Shown one piece after another: positions 2,513 to 18,069 of a stretch of 64,000 nt of DNA; the first letter of the stretch is position 1; every line of letters starts with the position of its first letter. The DNA is taken from contig JBMFRC010000001.1 in the NCBI GenBank assembly GCA_049968235.1, positions 32,001 to 96,000 of the forward strand. The letters are read 5' to 3'. The DNA is from Candidatus Hydrogenedens sp. (GTDB lineage Bacteria > Hydrogenedentota > Hydrogenedentia > Hydrogenedentales > Hydrogenedentaceae). The notes under the pieces are model-generated. The model had not been told where the DNA came from and searched no databases. It saw only the letters and a program-made list of their open reading frames with translations. Position numbers and translations under genes: made by a program.

Positions 2513-3091
2513 AGTTTAAACCTCTCACATATAAAGGGTTTTTGTAATGTAAAAATGTTTATATTTACATTTAAGTGTTACTACCTGTGTTTGTGGTATT
2601 AATATGGCATTTATCTTCGATAAACAGGAAAAATGGGCTTTCTCCACCCATGAATGTTAAAAGTTTATTAATTAAGAAAGCAATAAAACATAAATCATCT
2701 GACCAACTCGCATACACTGGATGCTTGCTTGAAATCATTCGCACATGTTTCACCGTAGTTTCTCCTTTATTAAATTGTTTCATTATATTAAAATCTTAAT
2801 ATTTAATATACAATCATACATTACAGTTTATCACAAATCACACCATTTGTCAATAATTTCTTGGAAAATTTTACAAAACACAAACTTTTTATAATTCTAC
2901 ATCACTTCATCCCAATAATGTCAAGAATTTTTTGAAAAAAAATAATTATTTTCTAATAATATTACACGGGGATTTCAAAAATTACCACAATATTTATTTC
3001 GAACACTTTTAATCAAAAAATTAAAGAAATAAAAATTGTTATTTTATTTTGATATTGAAATAGATATGATGTTCAAAGAAGGAATCTTTTG

Positions 3092-3679
3092 TTATTTTTC
3101 TTTTCTTTTTATCATTGAGGTTTTTCTACAGCGGTTCATCCGATTTTGCCAATCACCTGTCCAACCTTCCTCGATGGCTTGCTGACATAAAGAGATACAT
3201 TCTTCATATTGTCCCTGTCGTTCTCGGATATCCGACAAGGTATCATATCCCAAATGTGCCGGTAGAGGTATGCCGGGCATTGTTTGTTGGATATGTTCTT
3301 TTACTTCTTTTGACAAATCTATTTGTTTTTTTGAGGTAATTATTAGCAGTGCTGTCTTCGTATCGTTATCTTTTATATCTTCTTCAATATATCTGGATAT
3401 TAATTCTTCCAAAGCATAAAAACAGTCCAGGACATCTTCTACTTCCATTTCTTCGAGGTCTTTTTCCATCTTTTTTAACAATGAGTCTGATTGTTCTAAA
3501 TCAGGACGATATGCCAGTTTACTTTTGTTAACAACGATATCTTCATTTTTCTCTACAGGCTCAATAATTGTTACCATAAAAAGACGCTGGCAGTTAGGGC
3601 ATAAAACTTTTTGCCCTATGATTGATGTCGGTAATAAAACCTCTTTAGAACAATAGGGACAGGTAACGATAAATTTCAT
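3092..3679 (-). CDS. Zinc-ribbon domain protein (CxxC…CxxC), hypothetical
   Basis: N-terminus MKFIVTCPYCSKEVLLPTSIIGQKVLCPNCQRLF. The start codon overlaps the addA stop (ATGA at 3676-3679), which suggests translational coupling. Confidence 0.5.
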   Translation of the reverse strand: MKFIVTCPYCSKEVLLPTSIIGQKVLCPNCQRLFMVTIIEPVEKNEDIVVNKSKLAYRPDLEQSDSLLKKMEKDLEEMEVEDVLDCFYALEELISRYIEEDIKDNDTKTALLIITSKKQIDLSKEVKEHIQQTMPGIPLPAHLGYDTLSDIRERQGQYEECISLCQQAIEEGWTGDWQNRMNRCRKTSMIKRKEK

Positions 3680-6600
3680 TTCTCATAGCCCTGATTTATC
3701 TTTGTTATATATTTTTCAATGGCATGATGTATTTCTGTCTCTAAAACATCACGGACAGAAACCTCTATATCTTTTATATCATATTTTAATTGGTCAATGT
3801 ATACTATAATTAATTTATTATTGACTTTTATTCCCAGATCTTTCATTGCATAATAATAAATCTCTAATTGTTTCCAGTATCGTTGAGCATGATTATCAGC
3901 ATGGGTTCCTGTCTTATAATCAATAATAGTTCCATCGGCAAGTATTGCATCTACAGTTCCTTGAACAAAATAACCTCCTGTTTTCCAGATAAAAGGGGTT
4001 TCCCGCCAGATAGGCGGATTTGCTTTTAAGATAGGATATATAGGATTGTTTATTATTTTACTAAAACACACATCTTTTTCGTTTTTGATTATATCTTCTA
4101 AAATATCCGGGCTAATTATATTCAGAATATATTTTGATAATTGCTCTATGTTTTCTTCGTAAAAATCCCATAGTTGCAATAACTGATGGTAAAATATACC
4201 GCGTTCGGCATGCTCCATACCTAACGATTGTTCATATATTTCATCATTATCTTCATCATAAATATCATCAAAAAGGAAATTCAGTATTTGTGTTACTGAA
4301 ATAGGTTCTGTTTTAAAATGTTGGGGTGTAATCGATATAGGTGGAACTAAATTATATTGCAAAGACTTTATTTCTCTTTTTAAATCTTTTTTCTTAGGCG
4401 AATAATTACTTTCTTCCCTTTCTATAATATAATACAAACCTGTATCCTTTTTTTTATTAAGGGGAAAGCAACTTGCCAGTAATGATAGGCGGGAATTTAT
4501 TTTTTGTTTTTTATAAAATTCTTCGAGATATTTTTTATTTGAAGATAGGATTAAGTAATCGCGGGCACGAGTTAAAGCCACATAAAATAAACGGATATAT
4601 TCCTGATACTCATCATAGGTATTTTGTAACTTTATAATAGTCTCCACAATATTATTTTTTTCATCTTCTTTTTTCTTTGTTTTAATAATTACGCCCATTT
4701 CTTTATGATAATGAACGGCGGTTGATTTTCTGTGTTGCCTTTCTTCGTAGAGCAAAGGCAAAACAACGATGGGATATTCCAGACCTTTTGCCTGATGTAT
4801 TGTGGTTAGAATAACAGCATCTCCTGCTTCTGTTGCAAGGTCTGCCTCTCCTTCCATTATTTTATCGCGGGAGCGTTCTACAAACCTATGGAACTGGTAT
4901 AAACTTACGGGATTGCTTTCTTGATAAGCACGGGCTAATGCTAAAAATTTTTGGAGGTTAGCAATTCGCTGTTCTCCAAACCAATGCCCTAACAAAATGG
5001 ATTCGTAACCTGTTTGAAGAACAATTTCTTGAATAAGTTCGTGGATGGGAAGATGCGTTTTTTTCCGGAAATATTGATATAAGTAACGAACTCTTACATA
5101 AGCACTGTCTTGTGTCAGAGCATCCGGAATATTATTCGTATTTAATAACATATTTCGAAGAGGTAAGTTCATCTGCCAGCGAGTAATCTGTTCATCGGAA
5201 AGTCCGCAGAAAGGTCCCCGTAAGAAAGAAAGCAGGGCTATATCATGATATGGATTTATTAATACCTGAAGGAAATTTAATATGTCTTTTATTTCTGTAA
5301 TTTCAAAAAATCCCCGACTGCTAACGACAAAACAGGGTATGCCTCTGTCTTTTAACGCCTTTTCATATTTATAAATGTAATTTTTCGTGCAAAATAATAA
5401 AGCGAAATCACCATAACATACAGGGCGTAATTTATGCGTCTTTTCATCTACAATCATTAAAGGGTTTTCGTTATGAACTAAGGATTGAATACGCTCTGCA
5501 ATAATTTTAGCCTCAATATCAACATCATCTTCTTTTAATGTTCTTTTATCATCTTCCGAATGGACAGAAAGTAAAAATTCCACACGAGGTTTAGCATAAG
5601 AACTTCGATGTGCTTGCATGGGGATATATGTTTTTTCAACCGCAGACAGGGAATTTGTTTTCTGGAAAAAGGTATTGACAAAATCTAATACTTCCGGAGC
5701 AGACCTAAAATTGTAGTTCAGTGAAAATAGATTATTATCGACAACTGATTGTCGCTGTTCTTGAAAAACTTTTACTTCTGCATTTCGAAATGCATAAATG
5801 GATTGCTTTGCATCACCTACGAAGAAAAAGGAGAGATTGGGATTTGCCGATAACAACAATTGAATTAATTGCACCTGTGTATGGTCTGTATCCTGAAATT
5901 CGTCAATGAAAATATACTTTATTCCCTCAGCAATTTCTTTACATACTTGTGTATGTCTATTCAATAAATCATAGGTTAAATGTATCAAATCATCAAAGTC
6001 CACCACACCTTGCTGGCGTTTATATTGAACCCATTGACGATAGAACTGGTCAAATAAACGAAGTATTCTATATGTAAAAGTCAACGCTTTTTGTGTGGTT
6101 TCATCTTCCGCTTTTAAGTCAACAATCTCTATTCCTATTGTTTTTTTTATATCCTCACGAATTTTCTTTAATTGTTCCTGCAATTCACCACATATATTTC
6201 TATTCTTTATTATCAATCTTGTTTTATTTCCCAATATTGCTTCTTTAATTTGAATAATATGTTCCCGTTGTTTCGCAGTTTGCAATTTTCTCAATTCTGA
6301 GATATAAAAACTACTGAGAGTCTTCATGTTTTTTTCGTCTTCCGGAATTTCTTTATACAATTCCTCTAATTGTGTTATCCATCCATTTACCGTTGTTGAT
6401 TTCACAAAATTTAACAAATATTGCTCATATTTTTCATTTATTCGTTCAATATTTCTATTGATAGATTCTTCAATAGAACATTGATTTACTTCATCCAGCC
6501 ATGGAAGGATATGTAGGGAATTTTGAAAAAGTATTTCTATAATTTTTTGAAAATTTTGTGGTGAAAGTTCTATAACTAGTTCCGGAACTTCCGTATAATT

Positions 6601-13146: not shown

Positions 13147-13763
13147 GTTAAATCTAAAATACCTACGAATATTGTTATCACATTCCTTAATGCATAAACA
13201 AAAATAAATACAGGAAACAGTATAAGATATGCTAAATACAGGAGCAAATTATCTTTGCCCCGAATATAGCACAAGCATTTATTCCTTCTTTTGCAATTAT
13301 AAGTGGTGCGATTATTTTAATTTATCAGAGTAATACAATTATCCTGCTTTTGATAAATTCAATTTATTAATTAGCACCGGCATTTCTCTCTTTGCTTTTT
13401 ACCACGAATGGTGCGAGATGTAAATAAGCATAAAGTATTTATTATAGCAAATGATTATTCGCCATTACATAGAGATGCACTTGCCATGCAGGCGGGTTTT
13501 TGGAATGTGTTGGTAAAAATCGTTTCTGTCTGGCAGGACTTTCAGCAAGACAATGAGATAATTTTCACCACGGAGGACACGGAGGGACACATAGATATTT
13601 TTTTCTTATCACAGAAAGCACGGAGAACACAGAGAAGGGAACAGAGAATAGGTATGAGTATGGATATATTTATTCTATGATTTATATTCTCCTTTCCTTT
13701 TTTCTCTGTGTTTCTCTGTATTCTCTGGGGTGGAGTATTTTTTTTCTCACCACAGAGAGCACT

Positions 13764-14021
13764 ATCTTTTCTTGTTAATGACTGCATATAATTTGAAGTG
13801 GATATATGAGGAATTAAGGGGGCAAAAGGAGAAGTATGCATAGGTAACCAAAAGATAAAAATACTCACAGAAAATAACAAATAAAATGGGTAAAAGTAGG
13901 GATACAGACTTTTGTATTTTAATTTTTCATCGGGATTTTATCTCATAAAAACATGTATAATTTATACTCTTACCTCTTACCTCTTACCTCTTACCTCTTA
14001 CAAAAATTGTTCAGAGGTCTC
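13764..14021. repeat. ~250-bp repeated intergenic element, copy A; sits in the leader position 3' of cas2
   Basis: Aligns at ~85% identity with 40693-40926 (…tcttgttaatga(c/t)tgcatataatttgaag…ggaattaaggg…gcaaaaggaga…atgcatag…acaga…ttgtattttaattt…attttatctcataaa…aattgttcagaggtctc). Ends 10 nt before the cas2 stop codon. Confidence 0.8.
13967..14001. repeat. Microsatellite (CTCTTAC)x5 inside element copy A
   Basis: Five perfect tandem heptamers. Copy B has unrelated sequence at the corresponding position. Confidence 0.9.
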
Positions 14022-14031
14022 GTGTATTTTT

Positions 14032-14358
14032 TTATACTATAATAAGGTTGGGGTTTGAGATGGGTGTATAGTAGTTTAGTCCGTTTCTGTTGATAATTTT
14101 GATTTTATTTGCATCAGCATGGCAAAGGGGTATGATATGTATAATAAGTTGTCGGTTTTGGTCATTGGGTTGTTCGTTGGAGAGGTAATCACGAATGGTT
14201 TCCTGTAGTTTTTCGATAAGGAGTTCTTTTTCATATTCATCGAGGTCGCCCATGAAAACGGAGAATTGTATGTGCGAAGTTCCTACTTCTTCGAGGAGGT
14301 AGGTTATTTTGTTTCGTAGTTTATCGTTTCCTATGTCGAATAATAGTAGTGTTTGCAT
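14032..14358 (-). CDS. cas2: CRISPR-associated endoribonuclease Cas2
   Basis: MQTLLLFDIGNDKLRNKITYLLEEVGTSHIQFSVFMGDL… fits the canonical Cas2 N-terminal beta1-Asp/alpha1/beta2 pattern. 108 aa. Confidence 0.75.
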   Translation of the reverse strand: MQTLLLFDIGNDKLRNKITYLLEEVGTSHIQFSVFMGDLDEYEKELLIEKLQETIRDYLSNEQPNDQNRQLIIHIIPLCHADANKIKIINRNGLNYYTPISNPNLIIV

Positions 14359-14371
14359 AGGTTGATTTGTG

Positions 14372-15340
14372 TTATAGGTTGTATTTATTTTGTTGATTTA
14401 GGGTTTGTGTTAGTTTTATGGCTGCGAGCAGGATGTGTTTTTGGTAGTTGGTATTGGGGTCTTTGGGGGTAGGTTCATAGAGGCGTTCTATGTAAAGGGA
14501 GGAGAGTTTTTTTGTGTTTCTTTTTCGAGTAATCCGTTTTTCTGGAGTTGTACATTTATTCCTTGTCGTATGTAAGCGAGTAAGGGTGTATCGATGAGGG
14601 GTTGACGGAAAGGTTCGATAAAGAAGACGAGGGACTGTTTGTTGTTCTGTAGGGTGTGCAGAAACCCTGCATATGGGTCGAGTCCGGCGAGGGTTAAGGC
14701 ACGGAAGCATTCGGAGTAGAGGATGCCGTAACCGTAGTTGAGTGCAGAATTGACGGGGTCTTTCGAATGTCGGTGTGTTCTGTGGGTAAAGTTATAATTG
14801 GCTGGGATAAGTTGTTTGAAATATGACCAGTAGATGGATGAGGCGTGTGCTTCGGTGGACATGATTTGTTGTTTTGCGTGGGATATATTTTCAGTGTTGA
14901 TGGATTTTAATTTTTCGATGAGTGGGTAAATAGTATTGTGAAGTGTATCTTCGATTTGGGCTAAGTATGTTTTGTATCGACACAGGAATTAGAATTGGTT
15001 TTCGATTTTTGTTTGTATGTATTTTTTTGGCAATTTGTATGCCTAAGCCGTTCTGGATGGCTGTGTATTGGTTCCATCGGTTCTGGATATGGGGGTGATT
15101 GTATATAGGCTGGATAAAAGTGATGGAGTTCCCGTAGGGCTTACATACGGTTAAGGCGATGTCTTGCTGGCTTGCGAGTGAAAGTGCTTCAGCGGAGATG
15201 GAAAATCCTTGGGTGAAGATGATGATGTGTGAGAGTTTGCTGGATGGGATTGTTTTAAGGGTTTTGTTTTCGCCGATAATTTTGAACATGTTTTTGTGTC
15301 TACCGACACGGATATTCTTTTCAATAAGGATGAGATGCAT
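14372..15340 (-). pseudogene. cas1: cas1 pseudogene (two or more frameshifts)
   Basis: N-terminal fragment 14891-15340 (MHLILIEKNIRVGRHKNMFKIIGE…GFSISAEALSLASQQDIALTV… fits the Cas1 N-domain). Middle fragment 14488-14862 in another frame (…DPVNSALNYGYGILYSECFRALTLAGLDPYAGFLH…SLVFFIEPFRQPLID… fits the Cas1 catalytic core). C-terminal remainder in a third frame. Total span about 323 codons. Confidence 0.7.
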
Positions 15341-15461
15341 GTTAAAGTCCTCCTCTTCATTATTTTTATTACATCTAACCTTAAAAAGTTGTATTATTTG
15401 CTATGTATTTAGTCCCAATCAATTTCGAGTTTGAACCAACCCATAGGAAGGGATGCCTTTG

Positions 15462-16643
15462 TTATTTTTTTTGTGATGTAGTTAATTTATGAGACTTTGG
15501 ATAAGGTATTTGGTCAGAACATCTGTCTCTCTTTGCTTTTCCCCATTTTTTGTCATTTGTATCTCCTTGTGAAAATAGTAATGTTATAGTTTTTGATAAA
15601 GAACCTGTGCCATAACCTAATTGTAAAAATATTTTTTTGCCTCTTTCTATCCTAATATCTTCAGGGATGTCATATTCATTTTTATTTACAGAATTAAAGA
15701 ATTCCAGTTGTTTATCAATTAAAATTTCTGAGTATTTGCGTAAACAATCTTGAAAACTCTGTGTATCGTTAAGAACATTTTTAAGATATTTTATCTATTC
15801 TCCGTTATTATATTTATATTCATCCAACATAAATTTTAATGCTTGTTGGTCTAAATAGAAATCTATAATTATTTCTTTACCTTTAGGAATCAGGCATTCA
15901 GCAAATATATCAAATGGTTTAGTTGAAAATTTGTCTCCATTTTTACTTTTTACTTTTATTTGACATATTCCAAAATTGTCGATAGGAATCTCTTTAGAGT
16001 CTCTGATTACTAAAAATTTAAATAAATCATATTTTGCATCATAATTCGAATTATCTACTTCTAATGTAGTATATTTTTCTATATTTTTATTAAGGAGAAT
16101 ATTATTAATATTATTTGACTCTTTAATTAAACAATTAGTGACTGCATTTCTTATACATCCCTTTATACTTGAACCTGGAATAAAAAATTTCCCAAATGGG
16201 TATTTTATAAAGGAAAGGATTGGAGGAAGAGAAGTAGATTCTTGACATATAGATTTTGACTGAGAATTTTGGGATTGTTTTTTCTCAACTTGTTTCTGTA
16301 TTTTTCTTAGTTCTGGAGGAAGTGCTGTATGTTTAGGCGATATGGACCTTGATTGTTTATTTGTTTTTTCTCCTCTTGTTCCAAAATCAGCATATATAGG
16401 AAGAGAATAGCGAATATATTCAGGGTCGGGACGAAAGGAGGGTTCTTCAATAATCTTTAAATCAGTTTCATAATCTTCGCAATTATCCTGAAAATATTTC
16501 ATGACATCTTTTAGACAGAATAATAGCTGTTTCTCGTCAATGTCAATGTAATATTCAAAATTCTGATATTCTTCGCCATCTGATATATGGATGGGAGTGA
16601 TAGGTGTTAGTTTGAATTTGCCATGTTTCTTTTTATCGTTCAT
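15462..16643 (-). pseudogene. csm5: Type III RAMP, Csm5-like (Cas7 group), interrupted by an in-frame TAG
   Basis: The N-terminus MNDKKKHGKFKLTPITPIHISDGEEYQNFEYY is Csm5-like. RAMP glycine loop IPGSSIKGCIRNAV. ORF stops at TAG 15795-15797. The same frame continues for 110 more codons (IKYLKNVLNDTQSF…ERGKKIFLQLGYGTGSLSKTITLL…) and contains a G-rich motif. AAGGAG lies 8 nt upstream of the ATG. Confidence 0.65.
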
Positions 16644-16656
16644 TGTTTTTCTCCTT

Positions 16657-17595
16657 TTAAGGATGTTTGAAATAGATATTGAATGCGAGACCGGAACGCC
16701 AGATAGGATGAGGTGATGAGTCGTAACTGATGGCGATTACATCCCCCTTAGGCATTTCTTTGATAACAGGGAATTTACTTCCTTCTATACACATACGAAC
16801 AGATTGTTTGGGTTCATCATACCCGGCAATGCCATGTATCCACCCACCTCGCATAGTGCATTCATAAGATGCGATATTGGTGAGAATACCATTTTCAAAT
16901 TCTTCCAAAGTAGGATGATAAAGACTGAGTATTGCGGGACTGAGTATTGCGGTAGCTTTTGGTGGACTTTCCTGCCCACTTATTTTGAGCGTATCATTTT
17001 CTTCAATAATATATTTTGATTCGAAAGGTTCAATTTTTTTATAGTAAAATGTCCGAAACCTAAACTGCGTTCACCACCAATACCCAGTTTACCCAAAGCG
17101 GATAGAAAATTGACAAATGATTCTTTTTTCTCTTCTTCTAATTTAACAAAAAACCACAATCCGACATCTTCTTCGCTATTTATCTCATAAAAATTTTGAG
17201 GGTAGGCTGTAGTTTGATTAGTAACCCGGTCAATGACGGTGGAAATTTTATAATTTTCTTTAACGGTTTTTTTGGAGGGGAAACCTTCTTTATTATTTAT
17301 CAGGTCATTCATTTCTTCATTCAGGAGAAAAGTTGTTCCTGGATTCTCTTCATCACCGTCTAAATAGGGATAATCTTCTTTTTTTTGGGAAAAGTTCTTT
17401 TAATATTTGCTGGGTTTCTTCTGCTTTTTGGAATATTGATGAAGTGGTTAGAAGAATGACATTATCAAAATCACCAATGTTAACAGAAGAAATAATCGGC
17501 CCCTATTGTGTTCCACCGGTGGGTGCTTCATCTACTCTCCCGTAAGGGTCATTTGTTCCTACAAAACTTAACAGTAGAGAAGATTTCCTCCCCAT
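16657..17595 (-). pseudogene. csm4: Csm4-like (Cas5 group) RAMP pseudogene, three frameshifts
   Basis: Segments: MGRKSSLLLSFVGTNDPYGRV…, then …GPIISSVNIGDFDNVILLTTSS…KELFPKK. Next the track's 110-aa ORF (…EDVGLWFFVKLEEEKKESFVNFLSALGKLGIGGERSLGFGHFTI), whose G-rich loop and context closely parallel Csm4. Then …KKIEPFES…MEEFENGILTNIAS… up to the stop at 16657. Two of the frame changes coincide with A8 and A7 homopolymers. A 15-bp tandem duplication lies at ~16926-16955. Confidence 0.5.
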
Positions 17596-17688: not shown

Positions 17689-18069
17689 TTATTTTTCGGG
17701 GAAAGAGGAGGGGTGGGAACCGATGGCGATAATACTGCAAGCGTAGATGGGATTTAAGTTGAGTTGGATTGCCTTTTGCATAAGTTCTTCGTCTTCCGCA
17801 CCGGGGTTGATGTAAAGTTCCTCATGCTTCTTTTTAGCGATTGAGGGTAAAAGTGTTTTGCCGATTTGGGGAGGGACATAGACACTGATACGGTCGATAG
17901 GCTCGGGGACCTCCTCAATAGATTTATAGCAGGGAATTCCTTCAATTTCTGTAAGGTTTGGATTGACGGGATAAACTGTCCATCCTCTGGCAATATATGC
18001 ACGAATAGCTTTGTTGCTATATTTGTTTTTGTCTGCAGATGCACCGATGATTGCAACCGTTTTAGACAT
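17689..18069 (-). CDS. CoA-binding domain protein (YccU/YneT-like), 126 aa
   Basis: MSKTVAIIGASADKNKYSNKAIRAYIARGWTVYPVNPN…IEGIPCYKS… The ATG at 18069 lies 4 nt after the clpP stop. The 253-aa track ORF is a spurious upstream extension overlapping clpP. Confidence 0.75.
   Translation of the reverse strand: MSKTVAIIGASADKNKYSNKAIRAYIARGWTVYPVNPNLTEIEGIPCYKSIEEVPEPIDRISVYVPPQIGKTLLPSIAKKKHEELYINPGAEDEELMQKAIQLNLNPIYACSIIAIGSHPSSFPEK

What the first reader, a model, noticed from the sequence alone, without database searches (positions are those of the whole stretch)
15462..16643. Csm5-like RAMP gene interrupted by a single in-frame TAG, with 110 conserved-looking codons downstream
The ORF ends at TAG 15795-15797. 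The same frame continues to 15462 and encodes a C-terminal segment with a glycine-rich motif (…ERGKKIFLQLGYGTGSLSKTI…) appropriate for a ~393-aa Csm5. TAG is a real stop elsewhere (addB), so this is a nonsense mutation rather than recoding. It may be a recent inactivation.
Basis: seen in the sequence. Interest (0 to 1): 0.5.

Follow-up and report, generated by a model that had tools for sequence, protein, structure and literature searches.

The report
Broken csm5 in a decayed CRISPR locus
The in-frame TAG is real, but it is only one of about ten lesions in a gutted type III-A CRISPR-Cas locus, so this is an ordinary pseudogene in a dying defence system and not recoding or a lone recent mutation.

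Summary
On the minus strand, a 282-codon ORF (16643..15798) ends at TAG 15797-15795. The same frame runs 110 more codons to TAA 15464-15462. The read-through product is a Csm5: TIGR01899 scores 81.6 bits against a cut-off of 38.3. Eight full-length homologues (404-465 aa) cover both halves, including the invariant LQxGxxTxxxSKT loop.

- csm5 has a second lesion, a frameshift in an A8 run (15465-15472). It displaces the conserved C-terminus (SLPMGWFKLEIDWD*, ending at 15411).
- An intact syntenic relative (L003) has the order clpP, CoA-binding gene, rtcR-like gene, cas10, csm2, csm3, csm4, csm5, cas1, cas2.
- The window has a ~6-kb deletion joining rtcR codon 74 to csm4 codon 147.
- The surviving pieces carry in-frame stops in rtcR and cas1, frameshifts in csm4 and cas1 (two), and a lost codon in cas1.
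- There is no CRISPR array. Only cas2 is intact.

Two other assemblies carry the same TAG. TAG ends 5 other long ORFs in the window. Cas1 and Cas2 have diverged faster in this lineage than in intact relatives.

Verdict: a fixed pseudogene in a decaying CRISPR-Cas relic. Low interest.

The parts
15411..16643 (-). Full ancestral extent of the csm5 pseudogene (about 411 codons once the stop and the frameshift are bridged)
   Evidence: tblastn with the intact orthologue L003 Csm5 (424 aa): residues 1-406 map to 16643-15468 in one frame and residues 404-423 map to 15474-15415 in another. TIGR01899 Csm5 scores 81.6 bits. Alignment A1.
15798..16643 (-). N-terminal 282 codons of csm5, the only part that can be translated. 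A Shine-Dalgarno-like AAGGAG lies upstream of the ATG.
   Evidence: Pfam RAMPs 4.2e-11 and TIGR01899 3.3e-18 on this part alone.
15795..15797 (-). In-frame TAG nonsense codon (codon 283). It falls in a variable linker where homologues have I, A or Y, or a gap.
   Evidence: Identical in L001 and L002.
15465..15794 (-). 110 codons of csm5 downstream of the TAG, in the same frame, carrying the family-invariant glycine-rich loop LQLGYGTGSLSKT
   Evidence: TIGR01899 model positions 248-324 match at E 0.0047 for this part alone. No ATG, GTG or TTG start gives an ORF of 40 aa or more here.
15465..15472 (-). A8 homopolymer (T8 on the + strand) where csm5 shifts frame. This is the gene's second disabling lesion.
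15411..15468 (-). Displaced C-terminal codons of csm5 (KITKASLPMGWFKLEIDWD, then TAA 15413-15411). They match the conserved end of all eight homologues.
16651..17381 (-). 3' remnant of csm4 (codons 147-381 of 384). It has a frameshift at the A7 run 17034-17040 and a polymorphic 15-bp tandem duplication at 16923-16952.
17379..17386 (-). Junction of the ~6.0-kb deletion that joins rtcR-like codon 74 to csm4 codon 147. It lies in an A8 run, and both L003 breakpoints share AAAAG microhomology.
17380..17595 (-). 5' remnant (codons 3-74) of an RtcR-like sigma-54 activator gene, with an in-frame TAG at 17505-17503
14375..15340 (-). cas1 pseudogene. Lesions: frameshifts at A7 runs 15022-15028 and 14507-14513, an in-frame TAA at 14991-14989, and a one-codon deletion (VF-FIEPFR) near 14622.
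   Evidence: The run at 15028 is one A shorter, and so in frame, in L002.
14032..14358 (-). cas2, the only cas ORF still intact (108 aa, 76% identical to L003 Cas2)
17689..18069 (-). Intact CoA-binding-domain gene. It is the conserved chromosomal flank that anchors synteny with the intact loci L003, L006 and L022.

Best explanation
[quoted passage not shown] The ancestor of this lineage had, next to clpP and a CoA-binding gene, the operon rtcR-like, cas10, csm2, csm3, csm4, csm5, cas1, cas2, probably followed by a CRISPR array. Relatives still have this operon (shown). A deletion of about 6 kb between short A-rich microhomologies removed the regulator's body, cas10, csm2, csm3 and the first 146 codons of csm4 (shown). 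With no Cas10 and no Csm3 backbone, no Csm complex can form, so Csm5 has nothing to assemble into. In intact systems Csm5 is a Cas7-group subunit of the Cas10-Csm complex that recruits PNPase and RNase R for crRNA 3' trimming. The leftover genes then drifted (inferred). csm5 picked up the TAG at codon 283 and a one-base slip in an A8 run. csm4 picked up one A-run frameshift. cas1 picked up two A-run frameshifts, a TAA and a lost codon. The rtcR stub picked up a TAG. At most a 282-residue N-terminal fragment of Csm5 could be translated. It lacks the invariant glycine-rich loop and the terminal strand of the RAMP fold, so it is expected to be non-functional. The order of the lesions is not known. 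The deletion may have come before or after the point lesions.
For: Csm5 identity: TIGR01899 at 81.6 bits against a 38.3 cut-off, Pfam RAMPs, and the A1 profile hitting solved Csm5 chains, with 6ifk_H at 6e-19 and 6o7e_Y covering profile positions 144-426. Both halves are homologous to full-length proteins of 404-465 aa. Intact syntenic loci exist: L003, L005, L006 and L022. Lesion map from tblastn and sequence reading. No cas10, csm2 or csm3 hit anywhere in the 64 kb. No CRISPR array by four methods. TAG ends 5 other long ORFs, TAA 24 and TGA 5. The only tRNA in the window is Leu(tag). The same TAG and the same frameshifts, except one polymorphic A-run, occur in two other assemblies. Thirty-nine A/T runs of 7 or more lie inside intact long ORFs elsewhere in the window. 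In the locus, 4 of 7 such runs coincide with frameshifts and a fifth is the deletion junction. Relaxed constraint: unique single-base codon changes give N/S of 48/88 in the window lineage against 20/81 in L003 (Fisher p = 0.009). Cas1 identity is 78-79% for window pairs against 86-88% among intact loci, and Cas2 is 71-76% against 83-86%. The flanking CoA-binding protein is 86-88% for all pairs. Csm5's role: PMC9762709.
Against: No reads were available, so base-level support at 15795-15797 rests on three concordant assemblies only. All four frameshifts sit in A7-A8 runs, the kind of site where long-read assemblies err, and one of them is polymorphic between assemblies. Some frameshifts could therefore be artefacts, although the three in-frame stops and the deletion cannot be. 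The rest of the genome is unseen, so a second type III locus elsewhere cannot be excluded. The csm2-csm5 modules are exchanged between close strains, so the csm5 rate comparison is unreliable, and with distant outgroups the acceleration is weak.
Confidence: 0.9

Rival explanations
1. The TAG is a sequencing or assembly error and the gene is really intact.
For: No read data could be inspected. The source appears to be a metagenome-assembled genome, and the frameshifts in the locus are all in homopolymers.
Against: The TAG is not in a homopolymer. It is identical in two further NCBI assemblies that differ from the window at four other positions. Even with the TAG repaired, csm5 still has the A8 frameshift, and the locus still lacks cas10, csm2, csm3 and 5' csm4. 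The other long ORFs of the window are intact despite 39 A/T runs of 7 or more.
Confidence: 0.03
2. TAG is read through or recoded (suppressor tRNA, pyrrolysine or programmed read-through), so a full-length Csm5 is made.
For: Two of the three in-frame stops in the locus are TAG, in csm5 and in the rtcR stub. The downstream frame is open and conserved.
Against: TAG terminates 5 of 34 other long ORFs. There is no tRNA(CUA) in the window. The third in-frame stop is TAA. Read-through would still hit the frameshift before the conserved C-terminus, and the product would have no Cas10, Csm2, Csm3 or Csm4 partners. The TAG lies in a variable linker with no conserved context.
Confidence: 0.02
3. The leftovers are kept for a reason. 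The 282-aa Csm5 fragment or the intact Cas2 may act alone or together with another CRISPR-Cas locus elsewhere in the genome.
For: cas2 is a complete 108-codon ORF. The remnant has the same structure in three assemblies. csm5 keeps its ribosome-binding site and start codon. Overall N/S of 0.55 is below neutrality.
Against: Cas2 and Csm5 show N/S of 1.0 on the window branch (7/7 and 25/25), against 0.14-0.54 in intact lineages. Cas2 is 71-76% identical to orthologues that are 83-86% identical to each other. The Csm5 fragment lacks 15 invariant C-terminal positions. Cas1, Cas2's obligate partner, is broken in four places. A 108-codon ORF can stay open by chance for a while. Three near-identical assemblies indicate shared ancestry, not selection.
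Confidence: 0.05
4. The A-run frameshifts are reversible phase-variation switches that turn the locus on and off.
For: All four frameshifts are in A7-A8 runs. The run at 15022-15028 differs by one base between assemblies, and the shorter allele restores the frame locally.
Against: Slippage cannot reverse three in-frame stops, a codon deletion and a 6-kb deletion. The restored cas1 frame in L002 runs into the TAA about 10 codons later. Homopolymer slippage is also the expected neutral mutation in a 37% G+C genome.
Confidence: 0.02

Closest known systems
Csm5 (TIGR01899), a Cas7-group RAMP subunit of the type III-A Cas10-Csm effector. Solved examples: S. thermophilus 6ifk_H, T. onnurineus 6o7e_Y and 6mur_F.
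   Same: The HMM score is above the curated cut-off. The gene sits between csm4 and cas1 as in intact orthologous operons. The N-terminal PIHIS..E motif, the IPGSS.KG.R motif and the C-terminal glycine-rich loop are all present. A family profile aligns to solved Csm5 chains over almost their full length.
   Different: The copy here is not a working gene: it has a nonsense codon at 283 and a frameshift before the last 18 codons. The subfamily is divergent and rarely sampled, with nine hits among 5.8 billion proteins and the best at 59% identity. It carries a ~60-residue low-complexity K/Q/S-rich insertion (residues ~85-140) and a conserved LPMGWFKLEIDW terminus.
Deletion-truncated type III-A locus of Mycobacterium tuberculosis modern Beijing strains (cas2, cas1, csm6 and csm5 lost, csm4 61.5% deleted; bioRxiv 10.1101/2020.12.01.407569)
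   Same: A multi-kb deletion takes out one side of a type III-A operon, ends inside csm4, leaves an orphaned half-locus, and is fixed in a lineage.
   Different: In M. tuberculosis the adaptation side and csm5 are lost and cas10-csm3 stay. Here the effector side (cas10-csm3 and 5' csm4) is lost and csm5-cas1-cas2 stay and then decay by point lesions. No insertion sequence is visible at the junction here, only an A-run microhomology.
Generic bacterial pseudogene decay by nonsense mutation and homopolymer slippage
   Same: There are multiple independent disabling lesions. Frameshifts concentrate in A/T runs of an AT-rich genome. The N/S ratio is raised and amino-acid change is accelerated relative to intact orthologues.
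   Different: Nothing unusual.

Membership tests
Csm5 (type III-A RAMP, TIGR01899) | Sequence scores above the curated family cut-off | tested here: met
   81.6 bits against a 38.3 cut-off for the read-through translation, and 66.3 bits for the N-terminal 282 aa alone.
Csm5 (type III-A RAMP, TIGR01899) | RAMP fold markers: the conserved N-terminal strand and the C-terminal glycine-rich loop | tested here: met
   Pfam RAMPs 6.6e-12. LQLGYGTGSLSKT aligns with invariant L, Q, G, T, S, K and T columns of the alignment. The loop lies downstream of the TAG, so it is encoded but not translatable.
Csm5 (type III-A RAMP, TIGR01899) | Homology to experimentally solved Csm5 subunits | tested here: met
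   The A1 profile hits 6ifk_H (6.3e-19), 6o7e_Y (1.7e-15, profile 144-426 to chain 90-372) and 6mur_F (3.9e-15). Csm3 and Cmr6 hits are much weaker.
Csm5 (type III-A RAMP, TIGR01899) | Encoded in a cas10-csm2-csm3-csm4-csm5 operon | tested here: not met
   Orthologous loci L003, L005 and L006 have the full operon. In the window only a 3' csm4 piece precedes csm5, and cas10, csm2 and csm3 are absent from all 64 kb. Ancestry is met; present-day context is not.
Csm5 (type III-A RAMP, TIGR01899) | Uninterrupted reading frame of family-typical length | tested here: not met
   TAG at codon 283 and a frameshift at 15465-15472. Homologues are 404-465 aa.
Pseudogene (non-functional relic) | Premature stop or frameshift relative to full-length orthologues, reproducible across assemblies | tested here: met
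Pseudogene (non-functional relic) | Relaxed selective constraint on the lineage | tested here: inconclusive
   The direction is consistent: N/S of 48/88 against 20/81, p = 0.009, and Cas1/Cas2 are long branches against an equidistant housekeeping control. For csm5 itself the test is confounded by module exchange and is weak with distant outgroups.
Pseudogene (non-functional relic) | No functional product (no full-length protein, no activity) | not testable with these tools
   Needs transcriptome or proteome data, or genetics.
Stop-codon recoding (TAG read as sense) | TAG is not used as a terminator genome-wide, or a dedicated tRNA(CUA) is present | tested here: not met
   TAG ends 5 of 34 other long ORFs. 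The only tRNA in the window is Leu(tag). The whole genome was not available.

The most novel reading that the evidence does not exclude
The relic is not entirely dead. The still-intact cas2, perhaps with the translatable 282-residue Csm5 N-terminal fragment, may be retained because it works in trans with another CRISPR-Cas system or in a non-defence role. That would explain why the same half-locus persists in three assemblies.
Probability: 0.04. Interest if true: 0.35.

Novelty: new member of a known kind. Interest (0 to 1): 0.12.

Why it matters
It matters mainly for annotation. The region 14032-17595 should be annotated as a degraded type III-A CRISPR-Cas remnant: pseudogenes of rtcR-like, csm4, csm5 and cas1, plus an orphan cas2. 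It should not be called a functional defence system, nor a case of stop-codon recoding. It is a clean small example of how a CRISPR-Cas locus dies. A microhomology-mediated deletion removed the effector core, and nonsense mutations and homopolymer slips then accumulated in the orphaned genes. An intact syntenic relative is available for comparison. It opens no new biological question.

Tried and rejected
- **CRISPR array search.** I searched for an array next to cas2 and across the whole window with the repeat finder, TRF and Rfam. I also searched for the shared 3' ends of contigs L003 and L004 (possible repeat starts) with blastn-short. Nothing was found.
- **Organism identity.** I hoped the species-representative genome scan would name the organism. 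The source species was not among the hits. The nearest named relative, a Candidatus Hydrogenedentota MAG, has only 35% Csm5 identity and says little. Taxonomy stays unknown.
- **Closer relative at the TAG site.** The metagenome scan gave no closer relative covering the TAG site. L022 matches the window's Csm5 at 77% but only over residues 1-82, where the contig ends, and it belongs to the L003 lineage.
- **Dating the csm5 lesion.** Tajima-type relative-rate tests came out significant with P0002 and P0005 as outgroups and marginal with P0006, but not with more distant ones. I then found that csm2-csm5 modules are swapped between near-identical strains, so I do not rely on the csm5 test. I use cas1/cas2 against the housekeeping control instead.
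- **GC skew over cas1-cas2.** I considered that the strong skew reflected mutational decay. This is rejected because intact orthologues have the same composition.
- **Origin of the TAG.** I considered that it arose from a pair of compensating indels (GAAATAGAT to GAATAGAT...). The DNA alignment cannot distinguish this from a substitution in an extra linker codon.
- **Split gene.** I considered a separately translated C-terminal part. No start codon gives an ORF of 40 aa or more downstream of the TAG.

Full report
**1. The observation**

On the minus strand an ATG-initiated ORF runs from 16643 to a TAG at 15797-15795, giving 282 codons. Translating 16643..15462 in one frame gives those 282 codons, the TAG, then exactly 110 sense codons and a TAA at 15464-15462. 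The coordinates and the description are correct.

**2. Is it Csm5, and is the downstream part real coding sequence?**

- NCBIfam TIGR01899 (Csm5) matches the read-through product at 7.5e-23, 81.6 bits against a cut-off of 38.3, over model positions 84-324 of 364.
- The N-terminal part alone gives 66.3 bits. The 110-codon tail alone gives a weak match (E 0.0047) to the expected model positions 248-324. Pfam sees only the generic RAMP domain.
- A search of 5.8 billion proteins found nine relatives. Eight are full length (404-465 aa, 36-59% identity) and cover 98-100% of the read-through query.
- In their alignment, 15 columns downstream of the TAG are invariant, including L340, Q341, G343, T346, S350, K351 and T352 of the glycine-rich loop.
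- A profile of this alignment hits solved Csm5 subunits: 6ifk_H at 6e-19, and 6o7e_Y and 6mur_F aligned from profile position ~145 to 426. Csm3 and Cmr6 hits are far weaker.

Both halves are therefore parts of one ancestral csm5.

**3. A second lesion in the same gene**

All eight homologues end in ...LPMGWFKLE(I/V/L)(D/E)(W/F), followed by zero to three further residues. The window's frame stops 18 codons short of that. The missing end, KITKASLPMGWFKLEIDWD followed by TAA at 15413-15411, is present in a different frame immediately after the A8 run at 15465-15472. csm5 thus carries a nonsense codon and a homopolymer frameshift. Its ancestral extent was 16643..15411, about 411 codons.

**4. The neighbourhood**

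The best homologue, P0001, comes from a contig (L003) with this gene order: clpP fragment, CoA-binding gene (126 aa), RtcR-like sigma-54 activator (503 aa), cas10 (941), csm2, csm3, csm4 (384), csm5 (424), cas1 (326), cas2 (108), contig end. L005, L006 and L022 have the same operon. L006 and L022 also share the clpP and CoA-binding flank with the window.

Mapping the L003 proteins onto the window by tblastn and reading the junctions gives the following.

| Gene | Window coordinates | State |
|---|---|---|
| CoA-binding gene | 17692-18069 | Intact, 86% identity |
| rtcR-like | 17595-17380 | Codons 3-74 only, with in-frame TAG at 17505-17503 |
| Deletion junction | A8 run 17379-17386 | rtcR codon 74 abuts csm4 codon 147. 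About 6.0 kb is deleted, and both breakpoints in L003 carry AAAAG microhomology. |
| csm4 | 17381-16651 | Codons 147-381, with a frameshift at the A7 run 17034-17040 |
| csm5 | 16643-15411 | TAG and frameshift as described above |
| cas1 | 15340-14375 | Frameshifts at A7 runs 15022-15028 and 14507-14513, in-frame TAA at 14991-14989, and one lost codon (VFDFIEPFR becomes VF-FIEPFR) |
| cas2 | 14358-14032 | Intact, 108 codons |

From my memory of Cas1 active sites, the lost codon may encode a metal-binding Asp. I did not test this.

No cas10, csm2 or csm3 homologue occurs anywhere in the 64 kb. No CRISPR array was found by the repeat finder, TRF, a long-seed whole-window repeat search or Rfam.

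**5. Error, recoding or mutation?**

- Two other NCBI assemblies (GCA_049971155.1 and GCA_049969095.1) encode the identical 282-aa product. They carry the same TAG and the same csm5 frameshift.
- They differ from the window at two SNPs, at the copy number of a 15-bp repeat in the csm4 remnant, and by one A in the cas1 run at 15028. They are therefore distinct genomes.
- The shorter 15028 allele restores the cas1 frame locally, but the TAA follows about ten codons later.
- Among 34 other ORFs of 200 codons or more in the window, 24 end in TAA, 5 in TAG and 5 in TGA.
- The only tRNA in the window is Leu with anticodon tag.
- Thirty-nine A/T runs of 7 or more lie inside intact long ORFs elsewhere in the window. 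Within the 3.5-kb locus, four of seven runs coincide with frameshifts and a fifth is the deletion junction. The frameshifts are therefore not a general assembly artefact, although individual ones cannot be verified without reads.
- No start codon downstream of the TAG gives an ORF of 40 aa or more, so a split gene is unlikely.

**6. How old is the decay?**

- Counting single-base codon changes unique to each of three lineages (window, L003, L005) across csm4, csm5, cas1 and cas2 gives N/S of 48/88 for the window, 20/81 for L003 and 33/143 for L005. Fisher p is 0.009 for the window against L003.
- Amino-acid relative-rate counts point the same way: csm5 56 against 25, cas1 42 against 17, cas2 18 against 5.
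- The csm5 test is unreliable. Near-identical strains exchange csm2-csm5 modules: L016 and L017 share Cas10, Cas1 and Cas2 at 97-100% with L003, but Csm5 at only 48%. With distant outgroups the excess is modest.
- A cleaner control uses the flanks. The CoA-binding protein is 86-88% identical for all pairs of window, L003 and L006, and ClpP is 94.5-96.4%. Cas1 is 78-79% for pairs that include the window against 86-88% among intact loci. Cas2 is 71-76% against 83-86%.
- The window lineage has therefore accumulated roughly twice the Cas1/Cas2 change of its relatives. The overall N/S of 0.55 is well below neutrality.

My inference is that the locus was functional for most of the time since these lineages split. 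It has since been dead long enough to collect about ten lesions. It is neither a single fresh hit nor an ancient fossil.

**7. Mechanism**

In intact type III-A systems Csm5 is a Cas7-group subunit of the Cas10-Csm complex. In Staphylococcus epidermidis it recruits and stimulates PNPase and RNase R for crRNA 3' maturation (PMC9762709). Here there is no Cas10, Csm2, Csm3 or complete Csm4, and no array. The only translatable product is an N-terminal 282-residue fragment lacking the glycine-rich loop and the C-terminal strand. The best-supported account is loss of function of the whole system, with csm5 as one of several drifting leftovers.

**8. Comparison with what is known**

This is a member, in pseudogene form, of a divergent and rarely sampled Csm5 subfamily. 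The process is ordinary bacterial gene decay. A published parallel is the fixed deletion in modern Beijing M. tuberculosis that removes cas2, cas1, csm6 and csm5 and 61.5% of csm4 (bioRxiv 10.1101/2020.12.01.407569). Here the opposite half of the operon is lost.

**9. Verdict**

Novelty is a new member of a known kind, and interest is low. The things seen in relatives are more interesting than the finding itself. These are the RtcR-like activator fused to the type III-A operon, the csm-module swapping between near-identical strains, and the odd G-poor composition of cas1-cas2. They are listed as items noticed in passing.

Noticed in passing
window 17380-17595 (relic); intact in L003:632-2143, L005:3014-4537, L006:~3091-4590, L007:~3041-4522, L022:3028-4536: In every intact relative an RtcR-like regulator (divergent CARF domain, sigma-54 AAA+ domain and Fis-type HTH; Pfam RtcR 2.6e-11, Sigma54_activat 6e-59) sits directly upstream of cas10. 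Makarova et al. 2014 (PMC4012209) list the RtcR-like CARF family among those not usually found near cas genes. A sigma-54 activator with a CARF sensor that is consistently linked to a type III-A operon may couple cyclic-oligoadenylate or RNA-end signals to transcription. The window keeps only codons 3-74, with a TAG.
   Followed up: partly
L003, L016, L017 and L022 (related loci): Strains whose Cas10 (98%), Cas1 (97-99%), Cas2 (100%), RtcR (97%) and CoA-binding protein (100%) are nearly identical to L003 have Csm2 at 42%, Csm3 at 62%, Csm4 at 79% and, in L016 and L017, Csm5 at 48%. L022 keeps an L003-identical Csm5 N-terminus. This looks like cassette exchange of the crRNA-backbone subunits within an otherwise conserved locus.
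   Followed up: partly
window 14032-15340 (cas1-cas2), and the cas1/cas2 genes of L003, L005 and L006: The coding strand of cas1-cas2 has only ~11% G and 26-31% C, giving a GC skew of -0.36 to -0.49. This holds in the window and in intact orthologues. The adjacent csm genes and the housekeeping genes have skews near 0. It is a feature of the module and not of decay. The cause is unknown; a different origin or a strand-specific bias are possibilities.
   Followed up: partly
window 16923-16952: A perfect 15-bp tandem duplication (GACTGAGTATTGCGG x2 on the + strand; ...ATAILSPAILS... in the csm4 remnant) is present in the window and in L001, but is single-copy in L002 and in the intact orthologue L003.
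   Followed up: yes
window 13967-14001: Five perfect copies of the heptamer CTCTTAC (GTAAGAG on the minus strand) lie about 30 bp downstream of the cas2 stop, where relatives' contigs break off, presumably at a CRISPR array. The ~880 bp between cas2 and the SIS-domain gene (13147-14031) has no Pfam-recognisable ORF and no repeat remnant.
   Followed up: partly
window 15022-15028 vs L002: The A7 run in cas1 is A6 in assembly GCA_049969095.1. This is the only homopolymer length that differs between the assemblies over the ~4.8 kb compared. It is either real slippage polymorphism or a homopolymer calling error.
   Followed up: yes
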